A DNA stretch of 6,048 nt from a virus (IMGVR_UViG_2675903562_000001); one strand, 5' to 3'; positions 118 through 6,048 are shown, counted from the stretch's first letter. Numbers and translations are program-made. Notes: a model not told the origin generated them from the sequence alone.

Positions 118-645
118 TTATCCGGGATAAACAGTAATAACATCACCATCACAGACCACACCGCCTGTATACAGATAGCCTGGAATGTCCTGGATAATGT
201 TCAGGCCGATAAGGTGGCGACTTGCGGGTTTGGCATCGGCAATCAGCCGTTCCATTTCCAGATACATTTCCTCAGTCACGCCACTGTCCAGCGTGCCAAC
301 ATCAACCTTGAATGTTCCGGGTTCGCCGTCGAACTCCCACCACTCAGACACGCGAATGAGGTATCCCAGCGGCTCAATGGCCCGGCGCAATGCGCTGATG
401 GTCCCTTTGTGTCGGTGTATCAGCCATGCATCACGAATAACCTGTCGCTTTGTCTCTTCCGGCCAGTTGCGATCCCAGCGGTCAACGGAAAATGCCCAGG
501 CGAGATAAGGCAGCAGATGCACCGGGCAGGTGTCCGGTGACCACAGCGTGTTGAGGTCTACCGGGATGTTTGTAATGCGCGCTCCGACAGCTTCGGCGCA
601 ACGCATGAAATTGCTGGCTGATGGTGGTAACAGTGAATTACTCAT
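118..645 (-). CDS. I: Baseplate assembly protein I (175 aa)
   Basis: Sub-range of listed ORF 118..678. Preferred start is ATG at 645 with RBS AAGGTGG upstream; the ORF start at 678 is GTG with no RBS. Translation (MSNSLLPP...DGDVITVYPG) resembles P2 gpI along its length. Overlaps the J stop by 8 nt. Confidence 0.85.
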   Translation of the reverse strand: MSNSLLPPSASNFMRCAEAVGARITNIPVDLNTLWSPDTCPVHLLPYLAWAFSVDRWDRNWPEETKRQVIRDAWLIHRHKGTISALRRAIEPLGYLIRVSEWWEFDGEPGTFKVDVGTLDSGVTEEMYLEMERLIADAKPASRHLIGLNIIQDIPGYLYTGGVVCDGDVITVYPG

Positions 646-2466: not shown

Positions 2467-2573
2467 CGTACAGCCTCCGCAATCCGGCCCAGCACCGTGT
2501 TATAAATCAGGCGCTCATCTGTCTGGCTGATACCCAGCAGCTCACGTGCCGGGTACCCCGGCGCTGATAATAT
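2463..2573 (-). pseudogene. Orphan open frame of 36 codons with no start codon (ILSAPGYPARELLGISQTDERLIYNTVLGRIAEAVR); likely the displaced C-terminus of the upstream lysis gene or a remnant of a deleted tail completion gene
   Basis: Minus-strand frame open from 2573 to a TGA at 2465..2463 that overlaps the V start (GTGA coupling). It is +1 relative to the Rz-like ORF, which stops at 2544..2542. No ATG/GTG/TTG start with an RBS inside it. Confidence 0.35.
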
Positions 2574-3429: not shown

Positions 3430-3630
3430 CTACTCCCCCCACAACTGAATCATTTCTCGTTTCTTCTTCTCCGGCTCCGGCATCTCCACTTCCTGCCCGG
3501 CGTCCAGAAATACCTGCTGACAGAGTCCGGGGTTGGCATCCAGCACCTTTTCGGTGACGCCCTGCGTCGTGCCGTAGTACCGGAAACAGAGCGAATCCAC
3601 GGTGTCGCCTTCCAGTACCTTCACTTTCAT
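3430..3630 (-). CDS. X: Tail protein X (LysM-like, 66 aa)
   Basis: Sub-range of ORF 3430..3663; ATG at 3630 in ATGA overlap with the L stop. Translation MKVKVLEGDTVDSLCFRYYGTTQGVTEKVLDANPGL matches P2 gpX (…GDTLD..C.RYYG.T.GV.E.VL.ANPGL). Confidence 0.8.
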   Translation of the reverse strand: MKVKVLEGDTVDSLCFRYYGTTQGVTEKVLDANPGLCQQVFLDAGQEVEMPEPEKKKREMIQLWGE

Positions 3631-4124
3631 CAGCACAACTCCGCAAAGATTCGCGGGCGGCACAGAATGTCAGAGATGGCCCAGCTCACATCACGCCACA
3701 AATCCGATGTCTGTATATCCAGTGCGTCCGCCCGGCGGTCGCCCTTGTCCGTTGTGTCCGCATCGCGGTAACGCTCCAGTATCAGGGCGCGTGTGGCGGT
3801 ATAAACAGCATTGCGCCAGTGCCAGAGATTGACGCTTTCTCCGTTAATTGCGGGTGCCGGAACATCGGCCAGCGTCTGATGGCCAGCTGCCTGCTGTTCC
3901 TGCTGCCATGCTTCCAGCTCGCGGGTAACGTGTGCCACAGCCCCGGTGGCAGTATGCAGCAGGCGGGAGGTGGTCACGCGGCCCGGCAGTCGTACCGCCA
4001 GACGCAGCTCGCGCAGCACAATATCCGGCCAGAATGCACCCGCTGAAATGCGGGTATCGCCATCATCGGTATCGGTGATGTCGTCCTCTGCGGGTCCGGG
4101 TTCAGTTCTGGCAACCATACTCAT
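3630..4124 (-). CDS. L: Head completion/stabilization protein L (164 aa)
   Basis: Sub-range of ORF 3630..4133; ATG at 4124 preceded by RBS AGGAG at 8 nt spacing. Translation contains F.PDI…LADVPA…GES…ERYR…DKGD.RAD…LWRD..WA, matching P2 gpL as recalled. Confidence 0.85.
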   Translation of the reverse strand: MSMVARTEPGPAEDDITDTDDGDTRISAGAFWPDIVLRELRLAVRLPGRVTTSRLLHTATGAVAHVTRELEAWQQEQQAAGHQTLADVPAPAINGESVNLWHWRNAVYTATRALILERYRDADTTDKGDRRADALDIQTSDLWRDVSWAISDILCRPRIFAELC

Positions 4125-4138
4125 GGGGTTCACTCCTG

Positions 4139-4209
4139 AAAAAAATCGGGCGGTGGGTGCGCGGTGTAAACGGTCACGGAGTCAAACCGGAACACCGCGC
4201 ACGCCGCCC
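4139..4209 (-). terminator. Putative rho-independent terminator (or attenuator) on the minus strand between O-like and L
   Basis: Minus-strand sense reads GGGCGGCGTGCGCGGTGT, a 24-nt loop, ACACCGCGCACCCACCGCCC, then GATTTTTTT. This is an imperfect GC-rich stem of about 17 bp followed by a T7 run, immediately upstream of the L RBS. Confidence 0.45.
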
Positions 4210-4219
4210 GCTGACGGGG

Positions 4220-4807
4220 TCAGTCGTTAATCCCCATTACGCGGTTAAACCACTGGGTGCCTTCTTCCTGGCGTTGTTCTGCCATTTCGATGATTTCAGA
4301 CTCGATGGCTTCGGAAATGAGCGGTGCTTCACCCTGGACACTGTTGAACGTCATCACCGCCTGACGCTGCTGTGCCGTGAATTTCAGGCGCTCAGTGCCC
4401 AGGCTTGCCGGGGTGTCGGTCATCGCCAGCCCGACCAGATAGGCGCGCCCGTTAACGGAGAACTGCGGGTGCAGTTCGATACTGGAATAGATTTTCTTGC
4501 CGTCCGCGACAAGCTGCTTCATGCGCTCGGTCGGTTCGATTTCTGCATACAGCGCAGTACGTCCGGCCAGCGGACCTTCCGTAATGTCTTCCGTACTCAG
4601 TGCGGTGACATCGCCCATTGCGGAAAATTCGCTTGACGGGCATGGCGAGAGATAGTGCTCAACGTTCACGCGGGCAGCGTAAACATCCGGGTTGAAGTTC
4701 TCGGCGGCTTCACGCAGATGCACCGGACTGATTTCACGGCCATCAACAGTTGATCCGGAGACAGCCACGCGAAACTTTTTGCGGGATGTCTTTTTTTCAT
4801 TAGCCAT
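4220..4807 (-). CDS. O: gpO-like capsid maturation protease domain (195 aa), short relative to P2 gpO; C-terminal scaffolding region apparently absent
   Basis: Sub-range of ORF 4220..4840; ATG at 4807 with RBS GAGGGG upstream. Translation (…FRVAVSG.TVDGR.IS…NVEH…YSSIEL.PQF…YLVGLAMTDTPASLGTE…) matches the N-terminal protease part of P2 gpO, including candidate catalytic His about 51 and Ser about 108. It ends roughly 55 residues after the PASLGTE motif, whereas P2 gpO is about 284 aa by recollection. Confidence 0.7.
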   Translation of the reverse strand: MANEKKTSRKKFRVAVSGSTVDGREISPVHLREAAENFNPDVYAARVNVEHYLSPCPSSEFSAMGDVTALSTEDITEGPLAGRTALYAEIEPTERMKQLVADGKKIYSSIELHPQFSVNGRAYLVGLAMTDTPASLGTERLKFTAQQRQAVMTFNSVQGEAPLISEAIESEIIEMAEQRQEEGTQWFNRVMGIND

Positions 4808-4961
4808 AGTTTTTGCCCCTCTGACTGGTTCTTCAGTCATGATGGCAAAGCGTAACAGGCTGATACAAAGGGCTTTTGTTGTAAGAAAACGGCCAGAACA
4901 GGGGGTTAAGGAGAACGGTTTCGCGCGCGGGTAATCTTCCTGTAATTACTCAGGGGGAGCA
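4808..4961. promoter_or_regulatory. Divergent intergenic region between O-like (minus) and terminase P (plus); expected site of the two divergent late promoters
   Basis: 154-bp non-coding gap between divergently oriented genes, as in the P2 P|O late-promoter region. Contains an imperfect dyad TGT-N12-AGA (4880..4897) that only partly matches the Ogr/Delta-type TGT-N12-ACA element, and a palindrome ACAAAGGGCTTTTGT (4865..4879). No clear sigma70 -35/-10 pair identified. Confidence 0.3.
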
Positions 4962-6048
4962 ATGATTCAGGACGCTTTTGTGCGCCAGCGTGCGCGGCAA
5001 CTTTACTGGCAGGGTTATCCGCCCGCAGAAATATCACGTCTGATGGGAATAAACCCGAACACGATTTATGCGTGGAAAAAACGCGACCAGTGGGATGAAA
5101 CGCCACCCGTGCAGCGTGTCACGCAGTCCATCGATGCGCGCCTCATCCAGCTTACTGAAAAACAGAATAAAACAGGTGGTGACTTTAAGGAAATAGACCT
5201 GCTGACCCGGCAGCTTAAAAAACTGCATGATGGCCAGCCGGATGCGACGGCCACAGGAAAGAAAGGCCGGGCGAAAAAACTTAAAAATCATTTCACGCCG
5301 GAGCAGATTGCCGCACTGCGGGAAAAAATCATCAGCAGGCTGGAGTGGCATCAGCGGGGCTGGTTTGACTCCCTGAGCCTTTGCAGGGAAGCCGGGATAC
5401 GTAACAGGATGATCCTGAAATCCCGACAGATTGGGGCGACCTGGTATTTTGCACAGGAAGCACTGCTGATGGCGCTGCGTGACGATGTGGCACAACCTTA
5501 CCAGCGTAACCAGATTTTTTTGTCTGCGTCGCGTCGTCAGGCGTTCCAGTTTAAAAGCATTATTCAGAAGGCCGCGGCTGAAGTTGATGTGGAGCTGAAA
5601 GGGGGCGATAAAATCATCCTCTCCAACGGCGCAGAACTGCATTTTCTCGGTACTTCTGCTGCGACGGCACAGTCCTACACAGGCAATTTTTATTTTGATG
5701 AATTTTTCTGGGTCAGTCGCTTTGCTGAACTGCGCAAGGTGGCTGGCGCTATGGCAACCCTCAGCGGGCTGCGACGCACCTACTTCTCCACGCCATCCAC
5801 CGAAACGCACGAGGCATACGTCTACTGGAACGGCGACCGCTGGAACGAGAAAAAGGCCGCGCATAAACGCCAGCGTTTTTCTGTGGACTGGAAAACGCTG
5901 CATAACGGGCTTATCTGCCCCGACCGGACGTGGCGGCAAATTGTCACGCTGGAAGATGTGGTTAATCACGGCTGGAAACACACCGATATTGACGAAATTC
6001 GTGATGAAAACACCGAAGACGAGTTCCGCAATCTCTATATGTGTGAGT
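4962..6048 (+). CDS. P: Terminase large (ATPase) subunit, gpP-like, N-terminal 362 codons (continues beyond window end)
   Basis: I translated this frame by hand from the ATG at 4962 and it stays open to the window end; it is not in the ORF track, presumably because it has no stop within the window. G-rich RBS immediately upstream. N-terminus looks HTH-like (YWQGYPPAEISRLMGINPNTIYAWKK). Contains ILKSRQIGATWYFAQEAL and a Walker-B-like NFYFDEFFWV. Divergent orientation from O matches P2. Confidence 0.75.
   Translation, partial: MIQDAFVRQRARQLYWQGYPPAEISRLMGINPNTIYAWKKRDQWDETPPVQRVTQSIDARLIQLTEKQNKTGGDFKEIDLLTRQLKKLHDGQPDATATGKKGRAKKLKNHFTPEQIAALREKIISRLEWHQRGWFDSLSLCREAGIRNRMILKSRQIGATWYFAQEALLMALRDDVAQPYQRNQIFLSASRRQAFQFKSIIQKAAAEVDVELKGGDKIILSNGAELHFLGTSAATAQSYTGNFYFDEFFWVSRFAELRKVAGAMATLSGLRRTYFSTPSTETHEAYVYWNGDRWNEKKAAHKRQRFSVDWKTLHNGLICPDRTWRQIVTLEDVVNHGWKHTDIDEIRDENTEDEFRNLYMCE

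What the first reader, a model, noticed from the sequence alone, without database searches (positions are those of the whole stretch)
4139..4209. Strong intrinsic-terminator-like hairpin inside the late operon, immediately upstream of the L ribosome-binding site
A GC-rich stem of about 17 bp followed by T7 lies on the coding strand between O-like and L, with the L RBS beginning right after the T-run. Efficient termination would uncouple L, X and the lysis genes from the O promoter. This suggests an attenuator, a junction created by loss of N-M, or a regulatory boundary.
Basis: seen in the sequence. Interest (0 to 1): 0.4.

Follow-up and report, generated by a model that had tools for sequence, protein, structure and literature searches.

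The report
Conserved hairpin upstream of phage gene L
The terminator-like hairpin is real, but it is the normal, deeply conserved structured element that P2-like phages carry between their small-terminase gene M and head-completion gene L; here it lies next to a truncated scaffold gene only because a 2.2-kb deletion removed the genes in between.

Summary
On the minus strand a 7-bp + 11-bp GC-rich stem (4147-4210) is followed by A+U7 (4139-4146), then AGGAG and the L start codon; dG is -43 kcal/mol and no shuffle folds as well.

The window is a decayed P88-like (Peduoviridae) prophage. A 2,174-bp deletion joins mid-O to the stop codon of M at 4228-4230, 18 nt upstream of the stem. The hairpin was not made by that junction: it is the native M-L intergenic element, nearly invariant in 76 P88-like loci read.

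The same architecture recurs upstream of L in P2, 186 and relatives from eight other host genera, one copy per genome. It has a GGCGG/CCGCC basal helix, an almost invariant internal loop (C opposite CCA) and an upper helix with abundant compensatory changes. It matches no Rfam family.

Only the P88 lineage and one other lineage have a U-tract. So the conserved role is probably not plain termination.

Here it most likely acts as a leaky terminator and/or 3'-end-forming hairpin that lowers L, lysis and tail expression relative to the head genes. Full termination is unlikely, because essential genes downstream have no recognisable promoter. What recognises the C/CCA loop is unknown.

The parts
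4878..4899 (-). Candidate late-activator site of the O promoter (GTTC-N13-ACAAC), about 70 nt upstream of the O' start
   Evidence: Exact motif in the window. In P88, exact copies lie in both late-promoter regions (P/O and sheath/D) and at two minus-strand sites inside genes taken as chance. The motif was derived here from only two sites, so this is an inference.
4220..4807 (-). O' : truncated capsid scaffold/protease gene (195 codons; native O is 278)
   Evidence: Pfam Phage_GPO E = 2.4e-71, profile positions 2-183 of 268. 99.5% identical to P88 O up to the junction. Its stop codon TGA at 4222-4220 is new and lies inside the small hairpin P0.
4228..4230 (-). Deletion junction (TTA microhomology): O nucleotide 580 joined to the last bases of M; 2,174 bp lost (O 3' end, N, M)
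   Evidence: BLAST of the window against P88 and PhiR44_2. The junction is absent from 5,426 complete E. coli genomes, 80 IMG/VR loci and the GTDB species representatives. It is present in two metagenome contigs.
4211..4223 (-). P0: small hairpin CTGAC-CCC-GTCAG with a C-rich loop
   Evidence: Folds. Present in most relatives. Covariation support is weaker than for P1 and P2 (63-78% of cells paired).
4204..4210 (-). P1 5' strand CGGGCGG (basal helix)
   Evidence: GGCGG is nearly invariant family-wide and P1 is 99% paired.
4203..4203 (-). 5' side of the internal loop: single C
   Evidence: C in 79 of 82 distinct family members.
4192..4202 (-). P2 5' strand GTGCGCGGTGT (upper helix)
   Evidence: Perfect 11-nt inverted repeat (I3). 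All 7 modelled P2 pairs show changes on both sides across the family.
4168..4191 (-). Variable cap (24 nt) with a 5-bp mini-helix
   Evidence: Fold. Sequence and length vary between lineages.
4157..4167 (-). P2 3' strand ACACCGCGCAC
4154..4156 (-). 3' side of the internal loop: CCA
   Evidence: CCA in 81 of 82 distinct family members. It is kept even in AT-rich Pasteurellaceae phages.
4147..4153 (-). P1 3' strand CCGCCCG
4139..4145 (-). U7 tract, 1 nt after the stem (specific to this lineage)
   Evidence: Read directly. The run is T6, T7 or T8 in 46, 25 and 5 P88-like loci. It is absent or weak in most other lineages.
4133..4137 (-). AGGAG ribosome-binding site of L
   Evidence: Read directly; 8 nt before the ATG at 4124.
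3630..4124 (-). L: head-completion protein gene (164 codons)
   Evidence: Pfam Phage_GPL E = 1e-45. 99% identical to P88 gpL.

Best explanation
The hairpin is the P88-lineage copy of a structured element found between the small-terminase gene M and the head-completion gene L in nearly all P2-like phages (Peduoviridae).

It lies on the coding strand and is transcribed within the long late mRNA that starts at the O promoter.

Its conserved core has four parts:
- a small C-loop hairpin (P0);
- a GGCGG/CCGCC basal helix (P1);
- an internal loop of one C opposite CCA;
- a 7-11-bp upper helix (P2) whose sequence is free to change as long as pairing is kept.

In the P88 lineage, including this window, a U6-8 run directly follows the basal helix. 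The element therefore has the full anatomy of an intrinsic terminator.

The most likely action here is partial termination, with the hairpin left at the 3' end protecting the upstream head-gene message. That would give less mRNA for L, X, the lysis genes and the tail genes than for O-N-M, while read-through still supplies those essential genes.

The invariant C/CCA loop implies a further, sequence-specific recognition shared by the whole family, by a host or phage factor not yet identified.

In this window the element abuts a truncated O gene only because a 2,174-bp deletion removed the end of O, all of N and all of M. The deletion left the element intact but moved the upstream stop codon from 16 nt to 9 nt from the basal helix.

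Shown: the structure, its homology, its covariation, the distribution of the U-tract, and the deletion map. Inferred: partial termination, stabilisation, and recognition of the loop.

The confidence of 0.55 is for the whole statement. The identity part (a native, family-wide M-L element, not made by the deletion) stands at about 0.97. The mechanism part (leaky terminator / expression step-down) stands at about 0.45.
For: Structure and stability:
- dG is -43.3 kcal/mol, z = -6.9.

Native position:
- Intact P88 has a 101-nt M-L gap holding the same hairpin.
- The hairpin is nearly invariant in 76 P88-like IMG/VR loci read.

Family-wide homology:
- P2, 186 and phages of Klebsiella, Salmonella, Yersinia, Aeromonas, Pseudomonas, Burkholderia, Ralstonia and Mannheimia fold the same way in a 92-110-nt gap.
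- A covariance model hits 97 of 100 sources, always on the L strand and ending just before the L start.
- There is one copy per genome in P88 and P2.
- 117 of 120 pattern matches in IMG/VR are followed by gpL.

Covariation:
- P1 is 99% and P2 97.5% paired over 82 distinct sequences.
- All 7 P2 pairs show changes on both sides.
- The covariation score is 0.48 against 0.04-0.08 when partners are slid by 1-3 columns; 0 of 500 shuffles reach it.

Loop conservation:
- C in 79/82 and CCA in 81/82 distinct sequences.

Terminator anatomy here:
- U7 lies 1 nt after a 7-bp GC helix.
- A d'Aubenton-Carafa-type score, written from memory, is about +31 for the window. It is positive for only 5 of 91 distinct members.

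Need for read-through:
- The P2 record puts L through S in the O operon.
- In P88 the genes from L to G follow one another, with S and V overlapping. The motif shared by its two late-promoter regions does not recur between M and G on the coding strand.
Against: - No transcript data were available, so termination efficiency, 3' ends and processing are all untested.
- About 95% of family members lack a U-tract, so partial termination cannot be the conserved function. Here it may be a lineage add-on or even neutral.
- The hairpin is much longer than typical terminators (65 nt with a 24-nt cap).
- Strand and molecule are not settled. G.U versus A.C counts favour the sense strand (22 vs 7). Predicted folding energy is slightly better for the antisense strand (-36.5 vs -34.5 kcal/mol on average).
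- The absence of an internal late promoter rests on a motif derived from only two sites.
- Older P2 and 186 sequence papers could not be read, so a prior description cannot be excluded.
Confidence: 0.55

Rival explanations
1. RNA processing or stability element. The conserved hairpin is a recognition site for an endoribonuclease: RNase III on the roughly 20-bp helix with its asymmetric loop, or RNase P on 'helix + CCA'. Alternatively it binds an RNA-binding protein. Cleavage would split the late mRNA into an O-N-M segment ending in a protective hairpin and an L-... segment. The U-run in P88 would then be incidental.
For: - The unpaired C and CCA are invariant while the helices covary. This argues for sequence-specific recognition rather than a generic hairpin.
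- 86 of 91 distinct members score as non-terminators.
- Hairpin length is kept within 53-68 nt.
- From general knowledge: a helix followed directly by CCA resembles the acceptor end of tRNA-His and the 4.5S RNA precursor, both RNase P substrates.
Against: - There are no cleavage data.
- The CCA is enclosed by a strong GC helix, not free at a 3' end.
- ARAGORN finds nothing tRNA-like and the cap has no T-loop.
- RNase III has little sequence specificity, so it does not explain the CCA.
Confidence: 0.25
2. Efficient intrinsic terminator that ends O-promoter transcription before L, so that L, X and the lysis genes need another promoter. This is the strong form of the first reader's idea.
For: Canonical anatomy in this lineage: a 7-bp GC helix, 1 nt, then U7; positive terminator score.
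Against: - The 101-nt gap is filled by the hairpin and holds no promoter-like site.
- The motif shared by the two late-promoter regions does not recur between M and G on the coding strand in P88.
- The P2 record lists L through S as part of the O operon.
- L, X, R, S, V, W, J, I, H and G are essential virion genes downstream.
Confidence: 0.07
3. Single-stranded-DNA element. The hairpin forms in the strand displaced during rolling-circle replication and serves as a priming or helicase-loading site for lagging-strand synthesis, like the intergenic hairpins of phiX174 and G4.
For: - P2-like phages replicate by a rolling circle and gpB is annotated as required for lagging-strand synthesis.
- Covariation cannot distinguish RNA from ssDNA.
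- Predicted energy does not favour the sense RNA.
- There is one copy per genome.
Against: - The element is placed tightly between the M stop and the L ribosome-binding site (17-33 nt before the ATG).
- Two separate lineages have gained a U-tract on the sense strand.
- G.U pairs outnumber A.C mismatches on the sense strand.
- No conserved primase trinucleotide was seen.
- Which strand is displaced was not established here.
Confidence: 0.08
4. Cis-acting antiterminator RNA, like HK022 put. The folded transcript binds the transcribing RNA polymerase and makes it resistant to downstream terminators across the long L-to-G stretch.
For: - Two adjacent stem-loops with conserved unpaired residues.
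- A long downstream operon; the P2 record annotates a putative attenuator in it.
Against: - This is purely an analogy recalled from memory; no sequence comparison with put was possible.
- The element sits 2.8 kb from the promoter, whereas put sites are promoter-proximal.
- In P88 the element itself looks like a terminator.
Confidence: 0.05
5. Chance palindrome, or a by-product of the deletion junction.
For: The junction lies only 18 nt upstream of the stem.
Against: - The identical hairpin occurs in intact phages.
- Covarying homologues occur across the family.
- 0 of 200 shuffles fold as well.
Confidence: 0.01

Closest known systems
Rho-independent (intrinsic) terminators acting as partial terminators inside operons, e.g. 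the rplL-rpoB intercistronic attenuator of E. coli (own knowledge)
   Same: A GC-rich helix immediately followed by a U-run, on the coding strand, between two genes of one operon. Essential genes downstream imply partial read-through and a step-down in expression.
   Different: The hairpin is far longer (65 nt with a 24-nt structured cap). It has an invariant C/CCA internal loop. Its homologues in most related phages lack the U-run, so termination is not the conserved property.
Intercistronic stabilising hairpins (malE-malF REP hairpins; Rhodobacter puf operon hairpins) (own knowledge)
   Same: A stable stem-loop between a highly needed upstream gene block and less needed downstream genes. It could protect the upstream segment from 3' exonucleases.
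   Different: REP elements are dispersed multi-copy repeats with their own consensus. This element is single-copy per genome and tied to one gene junction.
Phage T7 RNase III processing hairpins (R1.1 type) (own knowledge)
   Same: Intergenic position in a long phage mRNA; a helix of about 20 bp interrupted by an asymmetric internal loop; the hairpin would remain at the 3' end of the upstream product.
   Different: No cleavage evidence. RNase III sites do not show an invariant CCA. The helices here are extremely GC-rich.
Hairpin substrates of RNase P (4.5S RNA precursor, tRNA-His acceptor end, P4 CI and P1 C4 RNA precursors) (own knowledge)
   Same: A helix followed directly by CCA on the 3' strand; precedent for RNase P processing of phage and satellite RNAs.
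   Different: The CCA is closed in by a 6-7-bp GC helix rather than single-stranded at an end. There is no T-loop and no ARAGORN hit. Untested.
M-L (R-Q) intergenic hairpins of P2, 186 and PHL101 as present in public records
   Same: Direct homologues with the same position, the same P1 helix and the same C/CCA loop. The PHL101 record annotates part of its copy as a 'terminator'.
   Different: The upper-helix sequence differs. P2 has only CUUUUC and 186 has no U-run. The P2 and 186 records carry no feature there.

Membership tests
Rho-independent (intrinsic) terminator | GC-rich stem closing within 0-2 nt of the U-tract | tested here: met
   7-bp CGGGCGG/CCGCCCG helix, then one A, then U7.
Rho-independent (intrinsic) terminator | U-tract of at least about 5 U | tested here: met
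   U7 at 4145-4139. The run is U6-8 in P88-like relatives. It is absent or weak in 86 of 91 distinct homologues.
Rho-independent (intrinsic) terminator | Compact hairpin (stem about 5-14 bp, loop 3-8 nt) | tested here: not met
   65-nt hairpin: 18 bp with a 1x3 internal loop and a 24-nt cap. The consensus scan did not report it.
Rho-independent (intrinsic) terminator | Transcripts actually end at the U-tract | not testable with these tools
   No RNA data were available. The operon layout argues against complete termination.
Peduoviridae M-L intergenic hairpin (family defined here, model R1) | Position: coding strand, between the M stop and the L start, one per genome | tested here: met
   The window hit is at 4144-4226 on the minus strand, and the relic of the M stop codon is kept at 4227-4229. 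97 of 100 sources have the hit just upstream of L. One copy each in P88 and P2.
Peduoviridae M-L intergenic hairpin (family defined here, model R1) | P1 GGCGG/CCGCC, internal loop C opposite CCA, covarying P2 | tested here: met
   All three are present in the window. The model score is 55.1 bits, E = 3.5e-8, but the window was in the seed. Non-seed loci score 30-66 bits.
Ribosome- or leader-controlled attenuator (alternative antiterminator fold) | A mutually exclusive alternative helix that sequesters the 5' strand of the terminator | tested here: inconclusive
   The MFE and centroid folds agree, and the MFE structure makes up 43% of the ensemble. Only a 4-bp alternative pairing with the P0 loop was seen by eye. 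No systematic search was run.
REP/BIME-type extragenic palindromes | Dispersed multi-copy repeat with the REP consensus | tested here: not met
   Single copy per phage genome and confined to the gpL-upstream context.
Any Rfam 15 family | Score at or near a family's gathering threshold | tested here: not met
   Only sub-threshold miRNA-type noise on the window and on 8 homologous loci.
RNase III / RNase P substrate | Specific cleavage by the enzyme | not testable with these tools
   Resemblance only: helix length, asymmetric loop, helix followed by CCA. There is no tRNA-like hit.

The most novel reading that the evidence does not exclude
The M-L hairpin is an undescribed, family-wide cis-acting RNA of the P2-like phages. 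Its invariant C/CCA internal loop and GGCGG/CCGCC helix would be the docking site for a specific host or phage factor, such as a processing nuclease or the transcribing RNA polymerase. That factor would set the ratio of head-gene to tail- and lysis-gene expression. The U-tract of the P88 lineage would be a secondary tuning device.
Probability: 0.3. Interest if true: 0.65.

Novelty: new variant of a known kind. Interest (0 to 1): 0.45.

Why it matters
For this window, the puzzle of a strong terminator in the middle of a late operon is largely resolved. It is the ordinary M-L element of a P88-like prophage, brought next to O by a deletion.

More generally, a roughly 80-nt structure with strong covariation and an invariant internal loop is conserved at one gene junction across a whole phage family. 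The hosts span gamma- and betaproteobacteria. The element is absent from Rfam and unannotated in the P2, 186 and P88 reference records.

If it controls the ratio of head genes to tail and lysis genes, it would be an unrecognised layer of late-gene regulation in a classic model phage group. It would matter for engineering P2/P4-based particles and tailocins. It is also a practical marker for annotating P2-like prophages and their remnants.

Tried and rejected
- **Consensus terminator scan.** It does not list the hairpin because its loop limit is 8 nt, so this is uninformative.
- **Rfam.** Searched at permissive E-values on the window and on 8 homologous loci. Only miRNA-like noise came back.
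- **Literature.** Seven full-text searches returned results (an eighth failed on term length) and two look-ups by id found nothing on this element. The original P2 sequence paper and the Bacteriophage P2 review sought by id are not held, and other older P2/186 papers were not found, so prior description cannot be ruled out.
- **Junction provenance.**
  - It is not in 5,426 complete E. coli genomes.
  - It is not in 80 IMG/VR loci.
  - It is not in the GTDB species representatives.
  - It is found in two metagenome contigs.
- **P2-type activator motif TGT-N12-ACA in P88.** It is not at the late promoters, so it was replaced by a motif derived from the two P88 late-promoter regions. That evidence is weak.
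- **tRNA-like reading.** ARAGORN finds nothing.
- **Sense versus antisense folding energy.** It did not favour the sense strand and so did not settle RNA versus DNA or which strand. G.U versus A.C counts favour the sense strand only modestly.
- **Considered by eye and dropped for lack of sequence match:**
  - RfaH ops site;
  - Chi;
  - integron attC;
  - K-turn;
  - lambda boxB;
  - an embedded sigma-70 promoter in the hairpin (TTGACT is present but has no -10 partner).

Full report
**1. The observation**

  - The basal helix P1 has 7 bp: CGGGCGG at 4210-4204 pairs with CCGCCCG at 4153-4147.
  - The internal loop has a single C (4203) opposite CCA (4156-4154).
  - The upper helix P2 has 11 perfect bp (4202-4192 with 4167-4157).
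  - The cap is 24 nt and contains a 5-bp mini-helix.
- After the stem come one A, then T7 (4145-4139), C, AGGAG (4137-4133) and, 8 nt later, the ATG of L (4124).
- The hairpin with its U-run folds at -43.3 kcal/mol. Dinucleotide shuffles average -22.8 +/- 3.0 (z = -6.9; 0 of 200 fold as well).
- The pattern-based terminator scan did not list the hairpin only because it allows loops of 3-8 nt.

**2. What surrounds it**

All genes of the window except one read on the minus strand. In order they are:
- O' (Phage_GPO, E = 2.4e-71, but only profile positions 2-183 of 268);
- the hairpin;
- L (Phage_GPL, E = 1e-45);
- X;
- holin;
- an M15 endolysin;
- a truncated lysB-like ORF;
- V, W, J and I.

The large-terminase gene P starts at about 4962 on the plus strand and runs off the window. 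This follows from the coordinate mapping to P88.

The window is 97-98% identical to the Xuanwuvirus phages P88 and PhiR44_2, but in three pieces: 6,048 bases here correspond to 9,609 bases there.

- Deletion B removes 2,174 bp, from nucleotide 580 of O to the stop codon of M.
  - The junction is at window 4228-4230, with a 3-nt overlap (TTA on the coding strand).
- Deletion A removes 1,382 bp, from inside the lysB-like gene to the last 31 codons of S.
  - The junction is at 2553-2555, also with a 3-nt overlap.

The junction lies 18 nt upstream of the stem and 5 nt upstream of a small preceding hairpin. Everything from there to L is native sequence.

**3. The hairpin is native to the M-L gap**

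- In intact P88 the M stop and the L start are 101 nt apart, and the gap holds the same hairpin.
- Of the 80 IMG/VR loci encoding a 98-99% identical gpL, the upstream region was read in 76, and the hairpin is nearly invariant in them. They show scattered single substitutions. The T-run is 6, 7 or 8 long in 46, 25 and 5 loci.
- Pieces of this region occur in 1,080 of 5,426 complete E. coli genomes. None of them spans the O'/M junction.
- The junction is also absent from the GTDB species representatives.
- It does occur, 99.8% identical to the window over the region spanning it, in two metagenome contigs.
  - Those contigs carry a different further deletion that fuses L codon 27 to the end of a tail-fibre gene.
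  - Deletion B is therefore natural and older than the later decay steps.

**4. A family-wide structure**

- P2 (M-L gap 99 nt) and 186 (R-Q gap 92 nt) fold in the same way.
  - Each has a small hairpin with a CCC loop and a GGGCGG/CCGCCC helix.
  - Each has C opposite CCA and an upper helix of different sequence.
- Fourteen more phages show the same architecture in a 92-110-nt gap. Their hosts are Klebsiella, Salmonella, Yersinia, Escherichia, Aeromonas, Pseudomonas, Burkholderia, Ralstonia and Mannheimia.
- A Zymomonas prophage in which M and L overlap has no such element.
- On a 17-sequence seed alignment, 92.9% of cells form standard pairs, against 36-44% when the 3' partners are slid by 1-3 columns. 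All seven modelled P2 pairs show changes on both sides.
- A covariance model built from that seed was run over the window and 99 loci. About 87 of these were chosen by clustering the regions upstream of gpL at 96% identity.
  - It hit 97 sources, always on the L strand and ending shortly before the L start.
  - There was one weak extra hit.
- Over 82 distinct sequences, P1 is 99% and P2 97.5% paired.
  - The covariation score is 0.48 against 0.04-0.08 for the slid controls, and 0 of 500 shuffles reach it.
  - That alignment was fitted to the model, which favours the structure; the seed result does not have this bias.
- The unpaired residues are the most conserved part: C in 79/82 and CCA in 81/82.
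- The AT-rich Pasteurellaceae versions keep GGGG-C...CCA-CCCC.
- The element occurs once per genome in P88 and P2, searched with filters off.
- A context-free pattern search in IMG/VR returned 120 matches, and 117 are followed by gpL. One exception is at a contig end. The other two are not hairpins.
- No Rfam 15 family matches.
- The P2, 186 and P88 records carry no feature at this position.
- The PHL101 record annotates part of its copy as a terminator.

**5. Is it a terminator?**

- Only the P88 lineage (T6-8) and one unrelated metagenomic lineage (T5-8) have a real U-tract after P1.
- Among 88 distinct element-plus-tail combinations, 79 have at most four T in the first eight bases.
- A d'Aubenton-Carafa-type discriminant, re-implemented from memory and therefore approximate, is positive for 5 of 91 distinct members. 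The window scores about +31.
- So the conserved property of the family is the hairpin and its loop, not termination. This window belongs to the minority that also looks like a canonical terminator.
- Complete termination is unlikely.
  - The P2 record lists O, N, M, L, X, Y, K, lysA, lysB, R and S as one operon.
  - In P88 the genes run on from L to G with S and V overlapping.
  - The motif shared by the two P88 late-promoter regions (GTTC-N13-ACAAC) does not recur on the coding strand between M and G. This argument is weak because the motif rests on two sites.
  - The genes downstream are essential virion and lysis genes.

**6. Strand and molecule**

- Compensatory changes show intramolecular pairing rather than a double-stranded protein-binding palindrome.
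- G.U pairs outnumber A.C mismatches in P1 and P2 by 22 to 7 on the sense strand.
- The predicted energy is slightly better for the antisense strand, -36.5 against -34.5 kcal/mol on average. There the UGG opposite G can add a wobble pair.
- Three things favour an mRNA element:
  - the tight placement between the M stop and the L ribosome-binding site;
  - the fixed orientation;
  - the gain of a U-tract on the sense strand in two separate lineages.
- A single-stranded DNA role during rolling-circle replication is not excluded.

**7. Most likely mechanism**

- In this lineage the element most probably acts as a leaky terminator and/or leaves a 3'-terminal protective hairpin on the O-N-M message. 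Either way, expression of L, X, the lysis genes and the tail genes steps down relative to the head genes.
- The invariant C/CCA loop and the GGCGG/CCGCC helix point to an additional, sequence-specific recognition common to the family. The candidates are:
  - a processing nuclease;
  - the transcribing RNA polymerase;
  - a phage protein.
- None of these can be tested with sequence alone.
- In the window the deletion moved the upstream stop codon from TAA at 4229-4227 to TGA at 4222-4220, so it now lies 9 rather than 16 nt from P1. A terminating ribosome could reach the first bases of P1 and weaken the terminator when translation is coupled. This is inference only.

**8. Comparison with known systems and novelty**

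- The nearest functional analogues are all cited from general knowledge:
  - intra-operon partial terminators such as the rplL-rpoB attenuator;
  - intercistronic stabilising hairpins (malE-malF, the puf operon);
  - T7 RNase III sites;
  - hairpin substrates of RNase P.
- As an intrinsic terminator the element meets the stem and U-tract criteria. It fails the compact-hairpin criterion, and actual termination could not be tested.
- The sequence itself is common in public genomes.
- The new point is the recognition that it belongs to a covarying, family-wide motif with an invariant internal loop, a motif not catalogued in Rfam or in the reference annotations.
- The original P2 sequence paper and the Bacteriophage P2 review were not held, and other older P2/186 papers were not found, so an earlier description cannot be excluded.

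**Verdict.** For this window the finding is ordinary, but the family-level motif gives it moderate interest.

Noticed in passing
window 2553-2555 (junction); 2542-2718 (lysB' ORF); 2463-2555 (S remnant): A second deletion of 1,382 bp relative to PhiR44_2/P88. It removes the end of the lysB-like gene, the tail-completion gene R and most of S, again with a 3-nt overlap at the junction. Together with the loss of N and M, the prophage cannot make virions.
   Followed up: partly
L395 1-240 and L396 340-1500 (metagenome contigs OJKG01000503.1, OGLS01001945.1): Two metagenome contigs share the O'/M junction and the hairpin with the window (99.8% identical over that region). They then fuse L codon 27 to the C-terminal repeats of a tail-fibre gene, followed by a tail-fibre assembly gene. 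This is a different, larger later deletion in the same decaying prophage lineage.
   Followed up: partly
window 5034-5981 (-) versus about 4962-6048 (+): The 315-aa minus-strand ORF has no Pfam hit and is probably spurious. By coordinate mapping to P88, the real gene here is the large terminase P on the plus strand. It runs off the window and so is not in the ORF list.
   Followed up: partly
window 4878-4899 (-); P88 (L393) 14214-14235 and 33253-33274: A shared motif, GTTC-N13-ACAAC, sits in both late-promoter regions of P88 and in the window upstream of O'. The P2-type TGT-N12-ACA motif is absent there. It may be the activator site of this lineage.
   Followed up: partly
window 4139-4145; L003-L082 about 1475-1482: The T-run after the hairpin is length-polymorphic among near-identical P88-like prophages: T6 in 46, T7 in 25 and T8 in 5 loci. 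If the hairpin terminates, this would tune its strength.
   Followed up: no
L089 1-63 and L517 1-37 (Burkholderia phage phi52237, NC_007145.2): The phi52237 record is linearised inside the M-L hairpin. M ends 36 nt from one end of the record and L starts 63 nt from the other. Several related Burkholderia records place L at the very end too. It may be arbitrary, or an assembly break at the GC-rich hairpin.
   Followed up: no
L394 (P2) 118-189 (-): The only other hit of model R1 with E below 1 in P2 is a weak one (15.9 bits, E = 0.3). It overlaps the annotated tQ terminator next to cosL. It is probably just a GC-rich hairpin.
   Followed up: no
L389 and L390, about 520-585: A metagenomic lineage only 52% identical in gpL to the Aeromonas phage has independently acquired T5-T8 directly after the conserved hairpin. 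This is the only group besides P88-like phages with a canonical U-tract.
   Followed up: no
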